A stretch of 64,000 nucleotides of DNA from Dehalococcoidia bacterium (GTDB lineage: Bacteria > Chloroflexota > Dehalococcoidia > UBA2979), in assembly GCA_963667465.2 (NCBI GenBank), contig CAXXDN010000001.1:480001-544000 (forward strand), given 5' to 3'. Under the pieces are notes generated by a model, which was not told where the DNA came from, did no database searches, and worked only from the letters and a program-made list of their open reading frames with translations. Made by a program: the position numbers and the translations under genes. The number at the start of each line of letters is the position of its first letter. The stretch's first letter is position 1. Positions 53,896 through 59,338 of the stretch are shown in pieces.

Positions 53896-54711
53896 ATGCT
53901 GGAGCCACCCGTCGACCCCTTCGCGCAGATCGCGCCCTTCTACGACCTCGATCTCGAGGGCTTCGACGACGATCTTGCGCTCTATCTCGCGCTCGCCGAC
54001 CGAGCGGCGGCGCGCGACAGCGGCGAGGACGTGCTGGAGCTTGGCTGCGGCACCGGCCGCGTCGCCCACGCCCTCGCCGGCGCCGGGTTCGGCGTCGCTG
54101 GCGTCGACTACAGCGCGGCGATGATCGAGGCCGCCCGCGTGCGCACCGAGGGCCTGCCCGTCCGCCTCGTCGAGGGCGACATGCGCAGCCTCGCGCTCGC
54201 TGAGCGATACGGCCTTGTGCTGATCCCGCTCGGCGGCCTCCAGCATCTCGAGACGACCGAGGACATCGCGGCGGCCTTCGCCAGCGTCGCCGTGCATCTC
54301 GCGCCCGACGGGATCGCGGCCGTCGACGTCGAGGCGCCGCACGCCGACGACTGGCTGCCGGGTCCGCGCCCGCTGGTCGAGCACTGGACGCGCGCGCTGC
54401 CCTGTGAGGACGGCGACGCGCGGGTGACGAAGCTTGTCGCCGTCGAGGGCGTGCCGAGCGAGTCGCTGCGCCTCGTGACGTGGCACTTCGACGTCCAGCC
54501 GCCGTCCGGGCCGCTGCGCCGCGTCACGCAGCAGTTCGCGCTGCGCGTCATCACCGCGGGCGAGATCGAGCTGGCCGCGCGCCTTGCCGGCCTGCGGGTC
54601 GACGCCTGGTACGGCGACTACGAGGGCGGCCCGCCGCGCGACGGCGACGAGCGGCTGATCGCCGTGCTCTCGCACGACGCGGACGCCGCCGAGCCGGGGG
54701 ACGCGCCGTGA
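53896..54711 (+). CDS. Class I SAM-dependent methyltransferase
   Basis: VLELGCGTGR, GVDYS, EGDMR. Confidence 0.88.
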   Translation: MLEPPVDPFAQIAPFYDLDLEGFDDDLALYLALADRAAARDSGEDVLELGCGTGRVAHALAGAGFGVAGVDYSAAMIEAARVRTEGLPVRLVEGDMRSLALAERYGLVLIPLGGLQHLETTEDIAAAFASVAVHLAPDGIAAVDVEAPHADDWLPGPRPLVEHWTRALPCEDGDARVTKLVAVEGVPSESLRLVTWHFDVQPPSGPLRRVTQQFALRVITAGEIELAARLAGLRVDAWYGDYEGGPPRDGDERLIAVLSHDADAAEPGDAP

Positions 54712-55709
54712 CCCGCATCGCGCTCGATGGGATGGGCGGCGATTTCGCGCCCGCGGCGACGGCCGAGGGCGCGATCACGGCGGCTCGCGAGGGCATCCAG
54801 GTCGCTCTCGTCGGTGACGGGCAGCGTCTCCAGGCTGAGATCGAGCGGCTTGGCGGCGCGCCTGCGGGGCTGCGCGTGGTACACGCCCCGGACGTGATCG
54901 AGATGGGGGACCAGGCGGCTCGCGAGGCGGTCCGCCGCAAGGCGTCCTCGGCGTATGTGGGCGTCCGGCTCGTCCACGACGGCGAGGCGGACGCTTTCGT
55001 CTCGGCCGGCAACACGGGCGCCGTCTTCGTCGTTGCCCTGCTCGTGCTGGGGCGGCTGCCGGGCGTCGAGCGGCCTGCGATCGGCGCGCCGATTCCCTTC
55101 CCGAAGGGAATCACGCTACTGCTCGACGCCGGGGCGAACGCGGAGTGCCGCGCCTCCCACCTCGTGCAGTTCGCGCACCTCGGCAGCAGCTACATGCGCG
55201 CCGCGCGCGGCGTGGCCGAGCCGCGGGTCGGCCTGCTCAACATCGGCGAGGAGGGCAACAAGGGGTCGCCGCTCACCATCGAGACGTACGAACGACTCAG
55301 CGAGTCCGGCCTGCGCTTCGTCGGCAACATCGAGGGGCGCGACCTGGTCGAGAACCGCGCCGACGTGGCGGTGACGGACGGCTTTACGGGCAATGTCGTG
55401 CTCAAGCTCGGCGAGGGCCTGATGGAGCTGCTGATGGGCGAGCTGCGGAGTGCCGTTGAGACCTCCTGGCGAGGCCGCCTCGGCGGGCTGCTGATTCGCC
55501 CGGCGGCGCGCAAGGTGCGCGATTCGCTGGACTACCGCGCGCACGGCGCCGCGCCGCTGCTGGGTATCGACGGCTCCGTCTTCATCGCGCACGGCACGAG
55601 CGACGCCTTCGCGATCGCGAACGCGCTGCGCAGCGCCGCCGCCGATGTGGAGCGCGGCGCGCTTGCCGCGCTGCGCGGCGCGATGGAGGCGCAGTCCGGC
55701 GGGGAGTAG
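54708..55709 (+). CDS. plsX: Phosphate acyltransferase PlsX
   Basis: IALDGMGGDFAP, SAGNTGA, LLDAGAN, GNIEG, DGFTGN. Confidence 0.96.
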   Translation: MTRIALDGMGGDFAPAATAEGAITAAREGIQVALVGDGQRLQAEIERLGGAPAGLRVVHAPDVIEMGDQAAREAVRRKASSAYVGVRLVHDGEADAFVSAGNTGAVFVVALLVLGRLPGVERPAIGAPIPFPKGITLLLDAGANAECRASHLVQFAHLGSSYMRAARGVAEPRVGLLNIGEEGNKGSPLTIETYERLSESGLRFVGNIEGRDLVENRADVAVTDGFTGNVVLKLGEGLMELLMGELRSAVETSWRGRLGGLLIRPAARKVRDSLDYRAHGAAPLLGIDGSVFIAHGTSDAFAIANALRSAAADVERGALAALRGAMEAQSGGE

Positions 55710-55808
55710 CAGGGCTCCGGCCGCAGTCAGGCGGGCGCGCGCTGGCGCTGCGTGAGATACTGGATCGAGGCCCGACGGGTGCCGGTGACTGAAGGGGGAA
55801 TGCACGCC

Positions 55809-56135
55809 ATGGCGATGCCGACCGACACGACGGACGCGACGTTCAACTCGGACGTGATCGAGAACGATGACCCGGTGCTGGTCGACTTCTGGGCGCCCTG
55901 GTGCGGTCCCTGCCGCATGGTCGCCCCGATCGTCGAGGAGCTCGCCGAGGAGTACGACGGCCGCGTGAAGTTCGTGAAGCTCAACACCGACGAGAACCCG
56001 ATGACCGCCGGCCAGTACGGGATCCGCTCGATCCCCACACTGCTCGTCTTCAAGGGCGGCGAGCCGGTCGGCCAGATCGTCGGCTTCCGCCCCAAGGGCG
56101 ACCTCGCGAAGCAGCTCGACGCCGCGCTGGTGTAG
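55809..56135 (+). CDS. trxA: Thioredoxin
   Basis: VDFWAPWCGPC, IRSIPTL. Confidence 0.97.
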   Translation: MAMPTDTTDATFNSDVIENDDPVLVDFWAPWCGPCRMVAPIVEELAEEYDGRVKFVKLNTDENPMTAGQYGIRSIPTLLVFKGGEPVGQIVGFRPKGDLAKQLDAALV

Positions 56136-56200: not shown

Positions 56201-56917
56201 GCGTGTCGGCGGCGCGCGCCGCCGCCGCGACGGAGCGGCGGCCTCCGCTCTGCCCCGGCGGGACTGGCCGACGGCAGGCGCGGAGCCCCGCTCAGAAGTA
56301 CTTCTCGCTGCCGCCGTAGCCCAGTTGCCTCCCCCGCTCCGTAGCCTTGATGAAACTCCGCAGGCGGCTTTCGAACACCTCCGGGCGCGCCCTGCCGGTA
56401 TCGATGTACGCCACGCGGATGCGGCGGTATGCGGCGGAGAAGCCCTCGTAGTGCGTCCACGCCTGATCGTTCGCCCGGATCGCGTCGAGGATGTCCTCAG
56501 GGAACACGAACTCCTCGCGCAGCACCTCCTCGACCGGCGCGCGAACGGAGGGGTGCAGCAACCCTTCGCCGGCAAGCCAGCGCAGTCGTTCCCTGTTCAG
56601 CTGGGAGTAGCGGCTGCCCCGCCTCCTCGGCGAGAACCGCTGCGCGGCCCGCAGCTCGTCCGGCTTCTTCACGATGCTGTCGATCCAGCCGAAGCAGAGC
56701 GCTTCCTCCACCGCGTCGTTGTAGGGAATGCGCGGTTCGCCCGACGCCTTGTTCGGGTAGACAAGCCAGATCTCAGGCGCCGTGCCGAAGTTCGCCTCCA
56801 GCCAGCGGCGCCACTCCGTGCGGCCGGTGACGTAGAGCGTCTCCCCGATCTCCATCGCGTGCTTCCTCGGCCGGCGGCGAGGGCGCCCGTCGTGTGGCGG
56901 CGGCGCGCGCCGCCGCC
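56185..56917. repeat. 42-bp direct repeats (56185-56226 and 56876-56917, 40/42 identical) flanking the YdeI gene
   Basis: GGCGAGGGCGCCCGTCG(C/T)GTG(T/G)CGGCGGCGCGCGCCGCCGCC. Confidence 0.85.
56292..56855 (-). CDS. YdeI/OmpD-associated family protein
   Basis: WRRWLE..IWLVY..YNDAVEEALCFGWID..RFSPRR..S.S..N. Confidence 0.85.
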   Translation of the reverse strand: MEIGETLYVTGRTEWRRWLEANFGTAPEIWLVYPNKASGEPRIPYNDAVEEALCFGWIDSIVKKPDELRAAQRFSPRRRGSRYSQLNRERLRWLAGEGLLHPSVRAPVEEVLREEFVFPEDILDAIRANDQAWTHYEGFSAAYRRIRVAYIDTGRARPEVFESRLRSFIKATERGRQLGYGGSEKYF

Positions 56918-56919
56918 CG

Positions 56920-57360
56920 TTACTTCTCGATCTTGCGGCCCTGCTTCTCCTCGAGGCGTGCGAGGGCGCGCCCCTTGTCGGGGTGCGGGTCCTTCACGAG
57001 GCCGTAGATCTCGCGGCCCTCGTGGTCTTCTGGCAGGTGTTCGGTGATGGGAAGACCTTCCTCATTACAGAACAGCAGTCAGTGGCAGTATTTGTACTTC
57101 TGCATCTCCTCGCAGGCGCAGATCCAGGTGCTGCGCTTCACCTCTTCCTCTTTGTCCTCGTAGAAGTTACAGGGGCAGAGCGGACGCCCGAGGTCGTCGA
57201 CGTGCTTGGCGAGGCCGATTACGAGGAACTCGGTGATCTCGCGCTGCGGGTGGAGGTATGAGCCGCTCTTCTCCGCGAACTTCTCCGCGAACTTCCACAT
57301 CTTATCGAGCGATTTCCCGGACGCCTGCATGCGGTCCGCATCGGTCGGTTGCTCGACCAT
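56920..57360 (-). CDS. Ferredoxin-thioredoxin reductase catalytic subunit, probable selenoprotein (Sec at codon 94, TGA 57081-57079), 146 aa
   Basis: LGRPLCPC..WICAC..KYCH-[TGA]-LLFCNEEG.. continues in frame to TAA at 56922-56920. The TGA occupies the second Cys of the FTR CHC motif and is followed by a SECIS-like hairpin. Confidence 0.88.
57038..57074 (-). promoter_or_regulatory. Bacterial SECIS element
   Basis: mRNA after UGA: UGUUC-U-GU-A-AUG-A-GGAA-GGUC-UUCC-CAU-C-AC-C-GAACA. Apical AGGUCU lies about 21 nt from the UGA. Confidence 0.8.
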
Positions 57361-57441
57361 GACACCTCTCCGTCCGTCCCGCTCGCGCTGCGGATCGAGC
57401 GTACCACGGCCGGCGGCCCGCGCCCTGATTCGCTCCGTTCG

Positions 57442-57470
57442 TTGACAGTTGCGCGGCCCGCCGTGACCAT
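57442..57470 (+). promoter_or_regulatory. Leaderless-type promoter for 2-hydroxyacid dehydrogenase
   Basis: TTGACA (57442-57447), 17 bp, GACCAT (57465-57470), 7 nt, GTG. Confidence 0.55.
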
Positions 57471-57477
57471 CCGGGCC

Positions 57478-58488
57478 GTGAGCGACGCCCCCTTCCTCGC
57501 CGTCCAGACCGAAACGTCCGACCAGGACCGCTACGCGATCGAACGCTCGATCATCGAGGCTGCCGGCGGGCGGCTGGTCGTGGCGCAGGCGGGGGGCGAG
57601 GACGAGCGCATCGAGCTGCTGCGCGAGGCGCAGGCGGTGCTCGTCAGCTCCGCGCAGATCAACCGGCGCGTGATCGAGGGGTCGCCGCGGCTCCAGCTGA
57701 TCATTCGCTACGGCGTCGGCCTCGATACGCTCGACATCCCTGCGGCGACCGAGCACGGCGTCGTTGTCGCGCACTACCCGGACTTTTGTCAGCCGGAGGT
57801 CGCGAACCACGCGATCATGCTGCTGCTTGCCGTCGCCAAGAAGCTGGTCGTGCACGACCGCGCGATCCGCGCCGGCCGCTGGGGCAGCGTCGACCGCGCC
57901 CCCGCCCCCGCGATCCACGGCCAGACGCTCGGCCTGATCTCCTTCGGCGCGATCGCCCGCGAGGTCGCCGTGCGTGCGCGGGCCCTCGGCATGACCGTGA
58001 CCGCCTACGACCCCTACGAGGGGGCCGCGACCTTCGAGGCCTGCGGCGTCCGGCGCGCCGAGAGCCTCAAGGAACTGCTGCGAGGCGCCGACCATGTCTC
58101 GGCGCACCCGCCGCTGACGGCGGAGACGCGCGGCATGATGGGCGCGGAGCAGTTCGCGCTGATGAAGCCGGGCGCGATCTTCCTCAACACCTCGCGCGGG
58201 CCGGTACACGACGAGGCGGCGTTGATCGCCGCCCTCGAGACAGGCGAGATTGGCGGTGCGGGCCTCGATGTATTCGAGTCGGAGCCGCTGGCGGAGGACT
58301 CGCCGCTGCTGGCGATGGACAACGTGGTGCTGACGCCACACTCCGCCTCGTACTCGGACCTCGCGTTCCAGCGGATGAAGGAGCGCGTCGGCAACACGGT
58401 GGTGTCGGTGCTGCGGGGGCGCTGGCCCGCGGAGTTCGCGGCGCTGCCGAACCGGCAAGCGGTCACGCCACGCGTGCCGCTCGAGTAG
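57478..58488 (+). CDS. D-isomer specific 2-hydroxyacid dehydrogenase (CtBP-like)
   Basis: RYGVGLD, EVANHA, FGAIAR, NTSRG, LDVFESEP, TPHSA. Confidence 0.9.
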   Translation: MSDAPFLAVQTETSDQDRYAIERSIIEAAGGRLVVAQAGGEDERIELLREAQAVLVSSAQINRRVIEGSPRLQLIIRYGVGLDTLDIPAATEHGVVVAHYPDFCQPEVANHAIMLLLAVAKKLVVHDRAIRAGRWGSVDRAPAPAIHGQTLGLISFGAIAREVAVRARALGMTVTAYDPYEGAATFEACGVRRAESLKELLRGADHVSAHPPLTAETRGMMGAEQFALMKPGAIFLNTSRGPVHDEAALIAALETGEIGGAGLDVFESEPLAEDSPLLAMDNVVLTPHSASYSDLAFQRMKERVGNTVVSVLRGRWPAEFAALPNRQAVTPRVPLE

Positions 58489-58549: not shown

Positions 58550-59338
58550 ATGCGACCGAACAAGGTGCTGCGAGCATGGCGTGAGGGACGGCAGACCATC
58601 GGCGGCTGGCTGTCCACGCCCTCGGGACACTCCGCCGAGGTGATGGCCAACCTCGGCTTCGACTGGCTCTGCATCGACATGCAGCATGGGGCGGTCGACT
58701 ACTCCGATGTGATCGAGATGTGTCGCGCGATCTCGACCACGGAGACCACGCCGTTCGTGCGCGTCCCCTGGAACGACCCGGCGATGATCATGAAGGTGCT
58801 CGACGCCGGCGCCTACGGCGTGATCGTCCCCCTCGTGAACAACCGCGAGGAGGCCGAGCTGGCTGTCTGGTCCTGCCGCTACCCGCCGGACGGTGGGCGT
58901 TCCTCGGGCCCCACGCGCGCCGCGATGTACGGCGGCGCCGGCTACCAGGACGAGGCCAACGACGAGATCGCCGTGATCTGCATGATCGAGACCGAAGAGG
59001 CGCTCGAGAATCTCGACGAGATCCTCTCCACGCCCGGTGTGGACTGCGCCTACATCGGACCGTCCGACCTCGCCTATGCGATCGGCATCACGCCGACCGG
59101 CGACAACGCCGACCCGAAGCACCAGGAGACGGTGCTGGGCATCCTCGAGGCCTGCCGGCGGCACGGCGTCGCCGCGGGCGTCCACACCGGCAGCCTGGAG
59201 TACACGGTGAAGTGGCTGCAGGCGGGCTTCGACACGGCGATGCTCAACAACGACGTCGGCTTCATCCGCCAGGCGGCGGGCTCGCAGCTCGCCGAGGCGC
59301 GCTCCACTACCGGCGTCGCCAACGTTCACGAGGCGTAG
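58550..59338 (+). CDS. HpcH/HpaI class II aldolase
   Basis: FDWLCIDMQHG, VRVP, LDAGAYG, MIET, IGPSDL. Confidence 0.9.
   Translation: MRPNKVLRAWREGRQTIGGWLSTPSGHSAEVMANLGFDWLCIDMQHGAVDYSDVIEMCRAISTTETTPFVRVPWNDPAMIMKVLDAGAYGVIVPLVNNREEAELAVWSCRYPPDGGRSSGPTRAAMYGGAGYQDEANDEIAVICMIETEEALENLDEILSTPGVDCAYIGPSDLAYAIGITPTGDNADPKHQETVLGILEACRRHGVAAGVHTGSLEYTVKWLQAGFDTAMLNNDVGFIRQAAGSQLAEARSTTGVANVHEA

What the first reader, a model, noticed from the sequence alone, without database searches (positions are those of the whole stretch)
56920..57360. Hidden selenoprotein: ferredoxin-thioredoxin reductase with Sec in the CHC motif and a SECIS hairpin
Seen: the ORF track stops at KYCH-TGA (57081-57079), but the frame continues LLFCNEEGLPITEHLPEDHEGREIYGLVKDPHPDKGRALARLEEKQGRKIEK to TAA at 56920. 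The motifs read CPC..CAC..CH-U. Right after the UGA the mRNA folds into a stem with apical AGGUCU, and the codons there (TGT AAT GAA GGT CTT) break the genome's strong GC3 bias, as expected under RNA-structure constraint. Established: FTR catalytic subunits have CPC/CPC/CHC, and the last Cys is the cluster-interacting member of the active-site disulfide. The E. coli fdhF SECIS loop also reads AGGUCU. Inference: this is a Sec-FTR that standard callers would truncate or mark as a pseudogene. I recall Sec-FTR being noted in marine metagenomes, but I know of no characterisation in this lineage.
Basis: partly seen in the sequence, partly recalled or inferred. Interest (0 to 1): 0.9.

Follow-up and report, generated by a model that had tools for sequence, protein, structure and literature searches.

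The report
Selenocysteine ferredoxin-thioredoxin reductase gene, real
This is a genuine selenoprotein gene, a bacterial ferredoxin:thioredoxin reductase whose last active-site cysteine is replaced by selenocysteine encoded by UGA, but the selenoprotein family has been known since 2008, so it is a well-supported new member, not a discovery.

Summary
A 146-codon frame runs from ATG 57360 to TAA 56922-56920 on the minus strand, with one in-frame TGA (57081-57079, codon 94) in the CH(C/U) motif of a FeThRed_B domain.

The selenoprotein reading is strongly supported:
- The genome has selA, selB, a Sec-containing selD and tRNA-Sec(UCA).
- 24 of 24 aligned homologues have Cys opposite the TGA, and conservation continues to the stop.
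- The same TGA occurs in 17 of 18 same-genus genomes and in 42 of 76 FTR-bearing genomes of a 301-genome class sample.
- A hairpin 21 nt after the UGA has the same A-GGUC-U apex as E. coli fdhF. Its core is present in 64 of 65 TGA copies and 0 of 15 Cys-codon copies in one sample, and the stem shows compensatory changes.
- Two independent assemblies show the TGA, and TGA is otherwise a normal stop in this genome.

Sec replaces the equivalent of Cys87, recalled as the cluster-interacting member of the active-site pair.

Novelty is limited. Sec-FTR was reported in 2008 and is listed in reviews. NCBIfam NF041072 covers only a double-Sec form, which this protein does not match (39 bits against a 160-bit cut-off). 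This single-Sec form, widespread in Dehalococcoidia, has no row of its own in the 2026 inventory.

The parts
56920..57360 (-). Complete coding sequence of a single-Sec ferredoxin:thioredoxin reductase catalytic-subunit homologue (146 residues plus TAA stop; U at codon 94)
   Evidence: Translation. Pfam FeThRed_B, 86.8 bits against a cut-off of 22, residues 17-101. Ungapped match to PDB 1dj7_A, E = 1.8e-23. Full-length homologues up to 81% identical over 99% of the protein.
57079..57081 (-). In-frame UGA read as selenocysteine (codon 94, CH-U motif), equivalent to Cys87 of Synechocystis FTR
   Evidence: 24 of 24 aligned homologues have Cys here. The same TGA is in 17 of 18 same-genus genomes and in 65 of 80 named loci. 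Two independent DNA assemblies show no other letter here. Offset-7 ungapped alignment to 1dj7_A.
57044..57068 (-). SECIS hairpin. The stem is 57068-57058 paired with 57053-57044, with one bulged base. The apical loop GGUC is at 57057-57054, closed by an A-U pair, and starts 21 nt after the UGA.
   Evidence: MFE fold. Core GGAAGGTCTTCC (57061-57050) is in 47 of 54 TGA copies and 1 of 9 Cys-codon copies, and in 64 of 65 against 0 of 15. 82.5-86.8% of cells pair, against 19-55% when partners are slid, and 3 of 10 pairs change on both sides. E. coli fdhF has the same apex 18 nt after its UGA.
57365..57371 (-). Purine-rich GGAGAGG, a likely ribosome-binding site 4 nt upstream of the ATG
   Evidence: Read directly from the sequence. 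Homologues start at the aligned Met. Not tested further.
55752..56135 (+). Thioredoxin gene (WCGPC), convergent with the FTR gene and the likely substrate
   Evidence: Pfam Thioredoxin, 115.6 bits. A thioredoxin homologue lies within 3 kb in 32 of 65 TGA-type loci and 0 of 15 Cys-codon loci.

Best explanation
The gene encodes a selenocysteine-containing homologue of the ferredoxin:thioredoxin reductase catalytic subunit (FTRC).

Inferred from the parts found: during translation, SelB carrying Sec-tRNA(Sec, anticodon UCA) binds the hairpin 21 nt downstream of UGA-94. Sec is inserted instead of terminating, which gives a 146-residue protein.

Shown by alignment: C62, C81, C83 and C92 correspond to the four ligands of the [4Fe-4S] cluster, and C64 and U94 correspond to the redox-active pair Cys57/Cys87. 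The active site would therefore be a selenenylsulfide, not a disulfide.

Inferred by analogy with the plant and cyanobacterial enzyme (the mechanism is recalled from the literature): the first electron from ferredoxin cleaves the C64-U94 bond. The selenolate of U94 attaches to an iron of the cluster while C64 attacks the thioredoxin disulfide. After the second electron, U94 is released and resolves the mixed disulfide, which frees reduced thioredoxin. The neighbouring thioredoxin gene is the likely substrate. Sec at the resolving, cluster-bound position would be a better nucleophile and leaving group than Cys.

The enzyme works without the FTRV subunit of oxygenic phototrophs.
For: Family: Pfam FeThRed_B at 86.8 bits. 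The alignment to 1dj7_A is ungapped, E = 1.8e-23, and places C62/64/81/83/92/U94 on Cys55/57/74/76/85/87. The predicted fold matches FTR catalytic chains best, with target-normalised TM-scores of 0.64-0.67.

Sec machinery in the same genome: selA 517 bits, selB 299 bits, selD 358 bits with its own in-frame TGA, and tRNA-Sec 77 bits with anticodon TCA.

Sec/Cys pairing: 24 of 24 aligned homologues have Cys at position 94, and 25 invariant columns follow it.

The part after the TGA evolves as coding sequence. Among 18 same-genus genes there are 25 synonymous against 8 amino-acid variants in 37 codons, and variable sites by codon position are 5/3/19. Before the TGA the figures are 24 against 6 and 4/4/19.

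Conservation of the TGA: 17 of 18 same-genus genomes, 42 of 76 FTR-bearing genomes in the class sample (my count of its rows), and 65 of 80 named loci.

SECIS: the core is present in 64 of 65 TGA copies and 0 of 15 Cys-codon copies.

Machinery tracks the TGA: the 2 other TGA genomes tested (G175, G062) have selA over the cut-off and a 72-75-bit tRNA-Sec. 2 of the 3 Cys-codon genomes tested (G020, G251) have no selA over the cut-off.

Not a sequencing error: contigs from two other studies match with 0 other letters across the site.

Not a code change: TGA ends 418 of 1028 long high-GC3 frames, and it ends the neighbouring OmdA gene.
Against: - There is no protein-level or labelling evidence.
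- The hairpin alone is thermodynamically unremarkable: z = -1.13, and 29 of 200 shuffles fold as well.
- No Rfam family matched the region.
- In the covariation test, the number of pairs changed on both sides (3) is no better than shuffles (186 and 229 of 500 reach it). The measures that do beat every shuffle can be inflated by relatedness.
- The hairpin lies in coding sequence, so some of its conservation is protein constraint.
- The hairpins after selD's TGA in the same genome have different loops.
- The RNA-library contigs that bridge the TGA belong to relatives. They do not prove transcription, and still less translation.
- The roles of Cys57 and Cys87 and the reaction steps are recalled from the literature. 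My searches for a paper stating them found none.
Confidence: 0.92

Rival explanations
1. The TGA is a true stop. The gene is a pseudogene or makes a 93-residue truncated protein that lacks the last active-site residue.
For: Gene callers record exactly this 93-aa product, in a cluster of 134 members. TGA is a common stop in this genome. The hairpin's folding energy is not significant alone.
Against: The 52 codons after the TGA are under the same purifying selection as those before it. They are conserved in all 24 aligned Cys homologues. The TGA-plus-tail arrangement persists in more than a hundred loci across several families. A truncated protein would lack one member of the redox pair. The hairpin core co-occurs with the TGA: 64 of 65 TGA copies against 0 of 15 Cys-codon copies.
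Confidence: 0.03
2. The UGA is read through, but mostly by a residue other than Sec, such as Cys or Trp inserted by near-cognate tRNAs. Alternatively, Sec is inserted only when selenium is available.
For: No experiment here identifies the inserted residue. One close relative (L083) has switched to TGC and kept the hairpin while its genome keeps selA and tRNA-Sec, so Cys is tolerated at this site.
Against: The full Sec machinery is present. The conserved SelB-type hairpin sits at the right distance. There is no genome-wide reassignment of TGA. Two of three Cys-codon genomes tested have no selA over the cut-off, which fits a TGA that depends on the Sec pathway.
Confidence: 0.04
3. The TGA is an assembly or sequencing error for TGC.
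For: None was found. A single-base difference would be enough.
Against: Contigs from two other studies cover the site with 0 other letters, one at depth 209. The same TGA is in 17 of 18 same-genus genomes and in 65 of 80 named loci.
Confidence: 0.005

Closest known systems
Sec-containing FTR homologues from the Global Ocean Sampling metagenome (Zhang & Gladyshev 2008, PMC2398784; passages read, figures and datasets not seen)
   Same: The same protein family (COG4802/FtrB), with Sec at a redox-active Cys position and a predicted bacterial SECIS after the UGA. The paper reported two sequences.
   Different: The sequence that paper highlights has two Sec residues, one at each redox-active Cys. 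The window's protein has one, in CHU, and keeps CPC. The GOS sequences were single reads of unknown lineage, and the authors said sequencing error could not be excluded. Here the gene sits in a near-complete genome with the Sec machinery, and it is conserved across a class.
NCBIfam NF041072, FtrB family double-selenoprotein
   Same: An FtrB-type selenoprotein, listed with motif CxU in the 2026 review.
   Different: The window's protein scores 39.2 bits against a cut-off of 160, and it has one Sec, not two. It is not a member of that equivalog.
Cyanobacterial and plant FTR catalytic subunit (PDB 1DJ7, 2PU9, 7C3F and others)
   Same: The alignment is ungapped over about 87 residues and all six Cys positions and the intervening His are conserved. 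The fold is the same, with target-normalised TM-scores of 0.64-0.67.
   Different: Sec stands in place of Cys87, and the second motif is CAC, not CPC. A conserved, clade-specific C-terminal tail of about 45 residues lies outside both the Pfam match, which ends at residue 101, and the PDB match, which ends at residue 100. No FTRV subunit was found in the genome, which is 93.6% complete. The organism is a non-phototrophic-type Dehalococcoidia MAG.
E. coli fdhF SECIS
   Same: The apical loop is GGUC closed by A-U, there is a single bulged base on the 5' side of the stem, and the element lies within the coding sequence directly after the UGA.
   Different: The loop starts 21 nt after the UGA, not 18. 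The upper stem above the bulge is 4 bp, not 3, and the stem sequences are otherwise unrelated.
Cys-form FTRC homologues of Dehalococcoidia
   Same: Up to 81% identical over 99% of the length, with the same C-terminal tail.
   Different: They have TGC or TGT instead of TGA and lack the hairpin core in 14 of 15 and 8 of 9 copies. They usually have Val where the Sec forms have Cys98. Two of three such genomes tested have no selA over the cut-off.

Membership tests
FTR catalytic subunit (Pfam PF02943, FeThRed_B) | Domain match above the curated cut-off | tested here: met
   86.8 bits against a cut-off of 22, residues 17-101, spanning the TGA.
FTR catalytic subunit (Pfam PF02943, FeThRed_B) | Six conserved Cys positions (CPC...CxC...CHC) and the intervening His, in register with a solved FTR | tested here: met
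   Ungapped alignment to 1dj7_A at offset 7. C62/64/81/83/92 and U94 fall on Cys55/57/74/76/85/87, and H93 falls on His86. Position 94 is Sec, not Cys.
FTR catalytic subunit (Pfam PF02943, FeThRed_B) | FTRC fold | tested here: met
   AlphaFold2 model with pLDDT 80.3 and pTM 0.75. The ten best PDB matches are all FTR catalytic chains, with target-normalised TM-scores of 0.64-0.67.
FTR catalytic subunit (Pfam PF02943, FeThRed_B) | Binds a [4Fe-4S] cluster and reduces thioredoxin with electrons from ferredoxin | not testable with these tools
   Only circumstantial. The ligand positions are conserved, and a thioredoxin gene is adjacent here and in 32 of 65 TGA-type loci.
FTR heterodimer of oxygenic phototrophs | A variable subunit (FTRV, PF02941) is present | tested here: not met
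   0 matches in the genome, which is 93.6% complete; the control rang in Synechococcus. According to PMC9025218 (passages read), FTRV is exclusive to oxygenic phototrophs, so this fits the bacterial FTRC-only type.
Bacterial selenoprotein gene | In-frame UGA aligned with Cys in homologues, with homology continuing after it | tested here: met
   24 of 24 homologues have Cys. The downstream region is under purifying selection.
Bacterial selenoprotein gene | A SECIS stem-loop directly after the UGA with G in the apical loop (bSECIS criteria recalled from the literature) | tested here: met
   GGUC loop 21 nt after the UGA. Conserved, with compensatory changes. There is no Rfam model hit.
Bacterial selenoprotein gene | selA, selB, selC and selD in the same genome | tested here: met
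   All four score over their curated cut-offs, and ARAGORN calls tRNA-SeC with anticodon TCA.
Bacterial selenoprotein gene | Selenium shown to be incorporated into the protein | not testable with these tools
   Needs 75Se labelling or mass spectrometry.
NF041072 FtrB double-selenoprotein | Score over the equivalog cut-off, and two Sec residues | tested here: not met
   39.2 bits against a cut-off of 160. There is one TGA only, and the first motif is CPC in the window and in all 80 named loci.
FDR-type ferredoxin:disulfide reductase (Methanosarcina 4TPU type) | A closer match than to FTRC, and a fused rubredoxin or glutaredoxin domain | tested here: not met
   4tpu gives E = 1.8e-8 against 1.8e-23 for FTRC, with query-normalised TM-score 0.41. 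Pfam finds only FeThRed_B.

The most novel reading that the evidence does not exclude
The single-Sec (CPC...CHU) FTR may be a distinct selenoprotein subfamily that has no row of its own in the 2026 inventory. It would be the prevailing form of this enzyme in Dehalococcoidia, including sponge-associated ones. Its selenium atom would transiently bond to an iron of the [4Fe-4S] cluster during catalysis, which would make it a natural Fe-Se intermediate in a thioredoxin reductase. Its fdhF-like SECIS might allow direct expression in E. coli.
Probability: 0.35. Interest if true: 0.55.

Novelty: new member of a known kind. Interest (0 to 1): 0.35.

Why it matters
The gene is mis-called as a 93-residue fragment in public protein sets. 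That removes one member of the active-site redox pair from annotations of an enzyme that probably feeds the thioredoxin system in an abundant, uncultured bacterial class.

Sec sits at the position recalled as the one that attaches to the Fe-S cluster in the FTR mechanism. This natural variant is therefore a ready-made probe of that unusual chemistry.

The many Sec/Cys switches give a compact case study of how Sec sites are gained and lost. They include one Cys-codon copy that still carries the hairpin in a genome that keeps its Sec machinery.

None of this overturns current knowledge. Sec-FTR and selenium-rich Dehalococcoidia are both already in print.

Tried and rejected
- Rfam over 56800-57500 at E up to 10 gave only a chance mir-1184 match (E = 4.7) and no SECIS family.
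- The single-sequence folding z-score is not significant, so I rely on comparative evidence.
- My genome-wide scan for TGA followed by a perfect 5-bp stem and a GGTC loop gave 17 noisy hits in this high-GC genome. As written it missed the FTR site itself, so I dropped it.
- Comparing the FTR hairpin with the one after selD's TGA showed no shared loop.
- Literature searches for a paper stating the roles of Cys57 and Cys87 found nothing. Those roles are therefore recalled.
- A search for selenocysteine + FTR + thioredoxin + Chloroflexi found 0 papers.
- Metatranscriptome contigs cover only 19 of the 30 bins of the laid stretch and belong to relatives. I do not use them as evidence of expression of this gene.
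- I sent no complex-prediction job for FTR with thioredoxin, because a textbook pair would pass by likeness to solved complexes.
- Supplements were closed. GOS Dataset S2 and Figure 6A, and the BSepDB tables and website, were not seen. They may already list this single-Sec form.

Full report
**1. Observation**

Read on the minus strand, the region has an ATG at 57360-57358, which follows GGAGAGG at 57371-57365. An open frame then reaches TGA at 57081-57079 straight after ...KYKYCH. The same frame continues for 52 more codons to TAA at 56922-56920.

Translated with TGA=U, it gives 146 residues with U at position 94 and the motifs CPC (62-64), CAC (81-83) and CHU (92-94). The mechanical ORF list ends at 57079.

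**2. Family**

Pfam FeThRed_B matches residues 17-101, across the TGA, at 86.8 bits against a cut-off of 22.

Against the PDB, the best hit is the Synechocystis FTR catalytic chain 1dj7_A (E = 1.8e-23). The alignment is ungapped with a constant offset of 7. This puts C62, C64, C81, C83, C92 and U94 opposite Cys55, 57, 74, 76, 85 and 87, and H93 opposite His86.

An AlphaFold2 model (pLDDT 80.3, pTM 0.75) matches FTR catalytic chains first, with target-normalised TM-scores of 0.64-0.67. The FDR-type ferredoxin:disulfide reductases 7pwe and 4tpu follow with weaker matches.

According to a review (PMC9025218, passages read), FTRC carries the 4Fe-4S cluster and the redox-active site. The same review says FTRV is exclusive to oxygenic phototrophs and that FTRC homologues occur in deep-branching bacteria. 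No FTRV was found in this genome, which is 93.6% complete.

Two points are recalled from the structural literature (Dai et al. 2000 and 2007) and come from no call. First, Cys55/74/76/85 ligate the cluster and Cys57-Cys87 form the active-site disulfide. Second, Cys87 is the member that attaches to the cluster. The GOS paper does state that two Cys residues form the redox-active disulfide.

**3. Is the UGA decoded as Sec?**

*Machinery.* The window's own genome (2.97 Mb, 2 contigs) has all four components over their curated cut-offs:

| Component | Score |
|---|---|
| selA | 517 bits |
| selB | 299 bits |
| selD | 358 bits |
| tRNA-Sec | 77 bits |

selD has its own in-frame TGA in ...SCGG*AGK.... 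I recall this as the known Sec/Cys active-site position of SelD. ARAGORN calls the tRNA as tRNA-SeC with anticodon TCA.

*Sec/Cys pairing.* A search found 1760 homologues. The best are up to 81% identical over 99% of the read-through protein. In an alignment of 24 of them, all 24 have Cys opposite the TGA, and 25 invariant columns follow it.

*Selection after the TGA.* I compared 18 same-genus genes over codons 106-142, which lie beyond the hairpin. They show 25 synonymous against 8 amino-acid variants, and variable sites by codon position are 5/3/19. The 37 codons before the TGA give 24 against 6 and 4/4/19, which is practically the same.

*Conservation of the TGA.* The orthologue carries one TGA in 17 of 18 same-genus genomes; the 18th, 92% complete, had no match. 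Among the 6 genomes of other genera in the family:
- 4 (G021-G024) have a single copy, and it carries the TGA.
- G020 has only copies without a stop.
- G019 has one full-length copy without a stop and two partial copies with a TGA.

In an even sample of 301 genomes of the class, 76 have a match at E <= 1e-20. By my count of the rows, 42 of these carry one TGA and 34 carry none. One of the 42, G264, is unpublished, so the figure is 41 of 75 without it.

In the 80 best loci from named public genomes, the site is TGA in 65, TGC in 14 and TGT in 1, and the first motif is CPC in all 80. These are all uncultured Dehalococcoidia or Chloroflexota MAGs by title. One is labelled Thermoflexus and one Verrucomicrobia. 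The two samples overlap in genomes and are not independent.

*Not an error.* Contigs from two studies other than the possible source cover the site with 0 other letters. X2's record 8 spans the whole stretch, and X6's record 13 covers 56960-57126 at depth 209.

*Not a code change.* TGA ends 418 of 1028 long high-GC3 frames in the genome, and it ends the neighbouring OmdA gene.

**4. The SECIS element**

The minimum-energy fold places a stem-loop at 57068-57044. Its apical loop is GGUC (57057-57054), closed by A-U, with one bulged base, and the loop starts 21 nt after the UGA.

Taken alone the fold is unremarkable: z = -1.13, and 29 of 200 shuffles fold at least as well. Rfam has no match. The comparative evidence is what counts.

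*Association with the TGA.* I read 64 loci from the genome search samples and dropped L044, which left 63 (54 TGA, 9 Cys-codon). The 12-nt core GGAAGGTCTTCC is in 47 of the 54 TGA copies and 1 of the 9 Cys-codon copies. In the named loci it is in 64 of 65 TGA copies and 0 of 15 Cys-codon copies.

*Frozen synonymous sites.* The core freezes three synonymous third positions (GAA, GGT, CTT) that vary freely in the Cys-codon copies. In the window, only 2 of the 7 hairpin codons have G/C at the third position, against 123 of 140 elsewhere in the gene.

*Covariation.* I defined a group of 47 copies (40 distinct) by the core only, and counted the ten-pair structure in two registers:

| Measure | Result |
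|---|---|
| Cells forming standard pairs | 82.5% and 86.8% |
| The same with partners slid | 19-55% |
| Pairs changed on both sides | 3 of 10 |
| Shuffles reaching the observed pairing or covariation score | 0 of 500 |

The number of pairs changed on both sides does not itself exceed the shuffles (186 and 229 of 500 reach it). Relatedness can inflate the other measures. Examples of double changes are U-A to C-G, where GAT...ATC becomes GAC...GTC, and G-C to A-U.

*Other hairpins at the same place.* Other clades keep a hairpin there with different letters: AUGGGGA[CGGGC]UCCCCAU in L073-75 and L084, and GGAA[GGC]UUCC in L071/72.

*Comparison with fdhF.* The real E. coli fdhF element, taken from NC_000913, has the same A-GGUC-U apex 18 nt after its UGA and a bulged base.

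**5. Evolution**

From 143 loci (119 TGA, 24 Cys-codon, with duplicates between the two samples) I obtained 111 distinct proteins, 92 Sec and 19 Cys. I built a quick maximum-likelihood tree with the Sec column and the 11 hairpin-encoded columns removed.

The tree needs at least 5 Sec/Cys changes, and well-supported branches force 3 of them. One clade of 84 rows is all Sec (SH-aLRT 85). The alignment is short, at 128 columns, and many forks are unresolved.

L083 (G082) has TGC but keeps the complete hairpin. It is sister to the Sec copy L076 with 97% support, which suggests a recent Sec-to-Cys change.

In five genomes I searched for selA and tRNA-Sec:

| Genome | FTR copy | selA | Best tRNA-Sec hit |
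|---|---|---|---|
| G175 | TGA | over cut-off | 71.6 bits |
| G062 | TGA, no hairpin core | over cut-off | 74.8 bits |
| G082 | TGC, hairpin kept | over cut-off | 71.6 bits |
| G020 | Cys codon | none over cut-off | 49.1 bits |
| G251 | Cys codon | none | 43.6 bits |

**6. Context**

Pfam calls for the neighbouring genes:

| Coordinates | Strand | Gene |
|---|---|---|
| 54480-55709 | + | PlsX |
| 55752-56135 | + | thioredoxin |
| 56292-56855 | - | OmdA-family protein |
| 57349-58488 | + | D-2-hydroxyacid dehydrogenase |
| 58550-59338 | + | HpcH/HpaI aldolase |

A thioredoxin homologue lies within 3 kb in 32 of 65 TGA-type loci, usually convergent and just downstream, and in 0 of 15 Cys-codon loci. 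This is circumstantial support for thioredoxin as the substrate.

**7. Mechanism**

*Shown:* the family, the position of Sec, the machinery, the conserved hairpin and the adjacent thioredoxin gene.

*Inferred:* SelB carrying Sec-tRNA binds the hairpin and inserts Sec at UGA-94. The enzyme holds a [4Fe-4S] cluster on C62/81/83/92 and a C64-U94 selenenylsulfide. Electrons from ferredoxin cleave that bond. The U94 selenolate attaches to the cluster while C64 attacks thioredoxin, and U94 then resolves the mixed disulfide.

**8. What is known, and novelty**

Zhang & Gladyshev 2008 (PMC2398784, passages read) reported FTR as a new selenoprotein family from GOS reads. They found 2 Sec sequences and 10 Cys homologues. 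One of the Sec sequences had two Sec residues at the two redox-active Cys positions. They predicted SECIS elements and cautioned about sequencing errors.

Reviews from 2022 (PMC9312934) and 2026 (PMC13188914) list FTR with motif CxU. The 2026 table gives NF041072 and 'No. of Sec 2'. That review says it treats forms that differ in Sec position as separate subfamilies, yet no single-Sec FTR row appears in the passages I read.

NF041072 is named 'FtrB family double-selenoprotein'. The window's protein scores 39.2 bits against its cut-off of 160, so it is not that equivalog.

BSepDB (PMC13326102, passages read) screened 64,762 genomes for all reported selenoprotein families. It lists two Dehalococcoidia among the ten richest selenoproteomes. 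Its main text does not contain the word 'ferredoxin', and I could not see the database itself.

A search for selenocysteine + FTR + thioredoxin + Chloroflexi found 0 papers.

Public protein sets hold the truncated 93-aa product. All 6 look-ups were found, in a cluster of 134 members that IMG names 'ferredoxin-thioredoxin reductase catalytic chain'. That look-up cannot find records bearing U.

**9. Verdict**

This is a real, well-supported selenoprotein gene and a new member of a known selenoprotein family. It belongs to a single-Sec branch that is widespread in Dehalococcoidia and appears poorly annotated. Interest is moderate to low for a specialist. The reading is sound, but the kind of thing has been known since 2008.

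Noticed in passing
G000 C1:106747-107682 (locus L010), outside the window: selD of this genome has its own in-frame TGA (...SCGG*AGKLG...), at what I recall as the known Sec/Cys active-site position of SelD. The hairpins after its TGA have loops different from the FTR hairpin.
   Followed up: partly
L083 (G082:C14), compared with L076 (G175): A TGC (Cys) copy of the FTR gene keeps the complete SECIS hairpin and is sister to a TGA copy (97% SH-aLRT). Its genome still has selA and tRNA-Sec. This looks like a recent Sec-to-Cys switch that was not caused by loss of the Sec pathway.
   Followed up: partly
L063 / L141 (G062): A TGA copy lacks the usual hairpin core. It has a different possible hairpin, GAUGG[CGUGC]CCAUC, and Val in place of Cys98. 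It is sister to a Cys-codon copy, and its genome has selA and tRNA-Sec. It could be a recent gain, a pseudogene or an error.
   Followed up: partly
L073-L075 and L084; L071-L072: Two other clades carry a TGA at the same codon, with a hairpin at the same place but made of different letters: AUGGGGA[CGGGC]UCCCCAU, and GGAA[GGC]UUCC. The first clade is sister to a Cys-codon copy, which may mean an independent origin.
   Followed up: partly
window 57068-57070 (codon 98, TGT): Most Sec copies have Cys four residues after Sec (U-L-L-F-C), where Cys-codon copies have Val. The exceptions are L063/L141, L129, L145 and the L073-75/L084 clade. The codon is part of the hairpin stem, so RNA constraint and protein constraint cannot be separated.
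   Followed up: partly
window 56896-56918: A GC-rich inverted repeat (GGGCGGCGGCGCGCGCCGCCGCC) lies directly after the FTR stop codon. Contigs of two runs match 56876-56917 at a second place as well, so it may be a repeated intergenic element or a terminator-like hairpin.
   Followed up: no
G000 C2:321209-322120 and C1:1028329-1029219 (L166, L167): Two thioredoxin-reductase-like flavoprotein genes score 284 and 243 bits, below the TIGR01292 cut-off of 343. The genome may therefore have other routes to reduce thioredoxin.
   Followed up: no
L157 (a 2.1-kb contig of a MAG labelled Verrucomicrobia): It carries a Dehalococcoidia-type Sec-FTR with the hairpin core and an adjacent thioredoxin gene. 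This is probably a mis-binned contig.
   Followed up: no
G000 C2:1302914 onward, outside the window: A tandem (TCGG)n tetranucleotide run turned up in the hairpin scan.
   Followed up: no
window 56920-57060 (residues 101-146): The C-terminal tail of about 45 residues (GLPITE.LP..HEGR..YG...DP.P.KGRAL) lies outside the Pfam match (residues 17-101) and the PDB match (ending at residue 100). It is highly conserved in this clade, and its role is unknown. It might stand in for the missing FTRV subunit.
   Followed up: no
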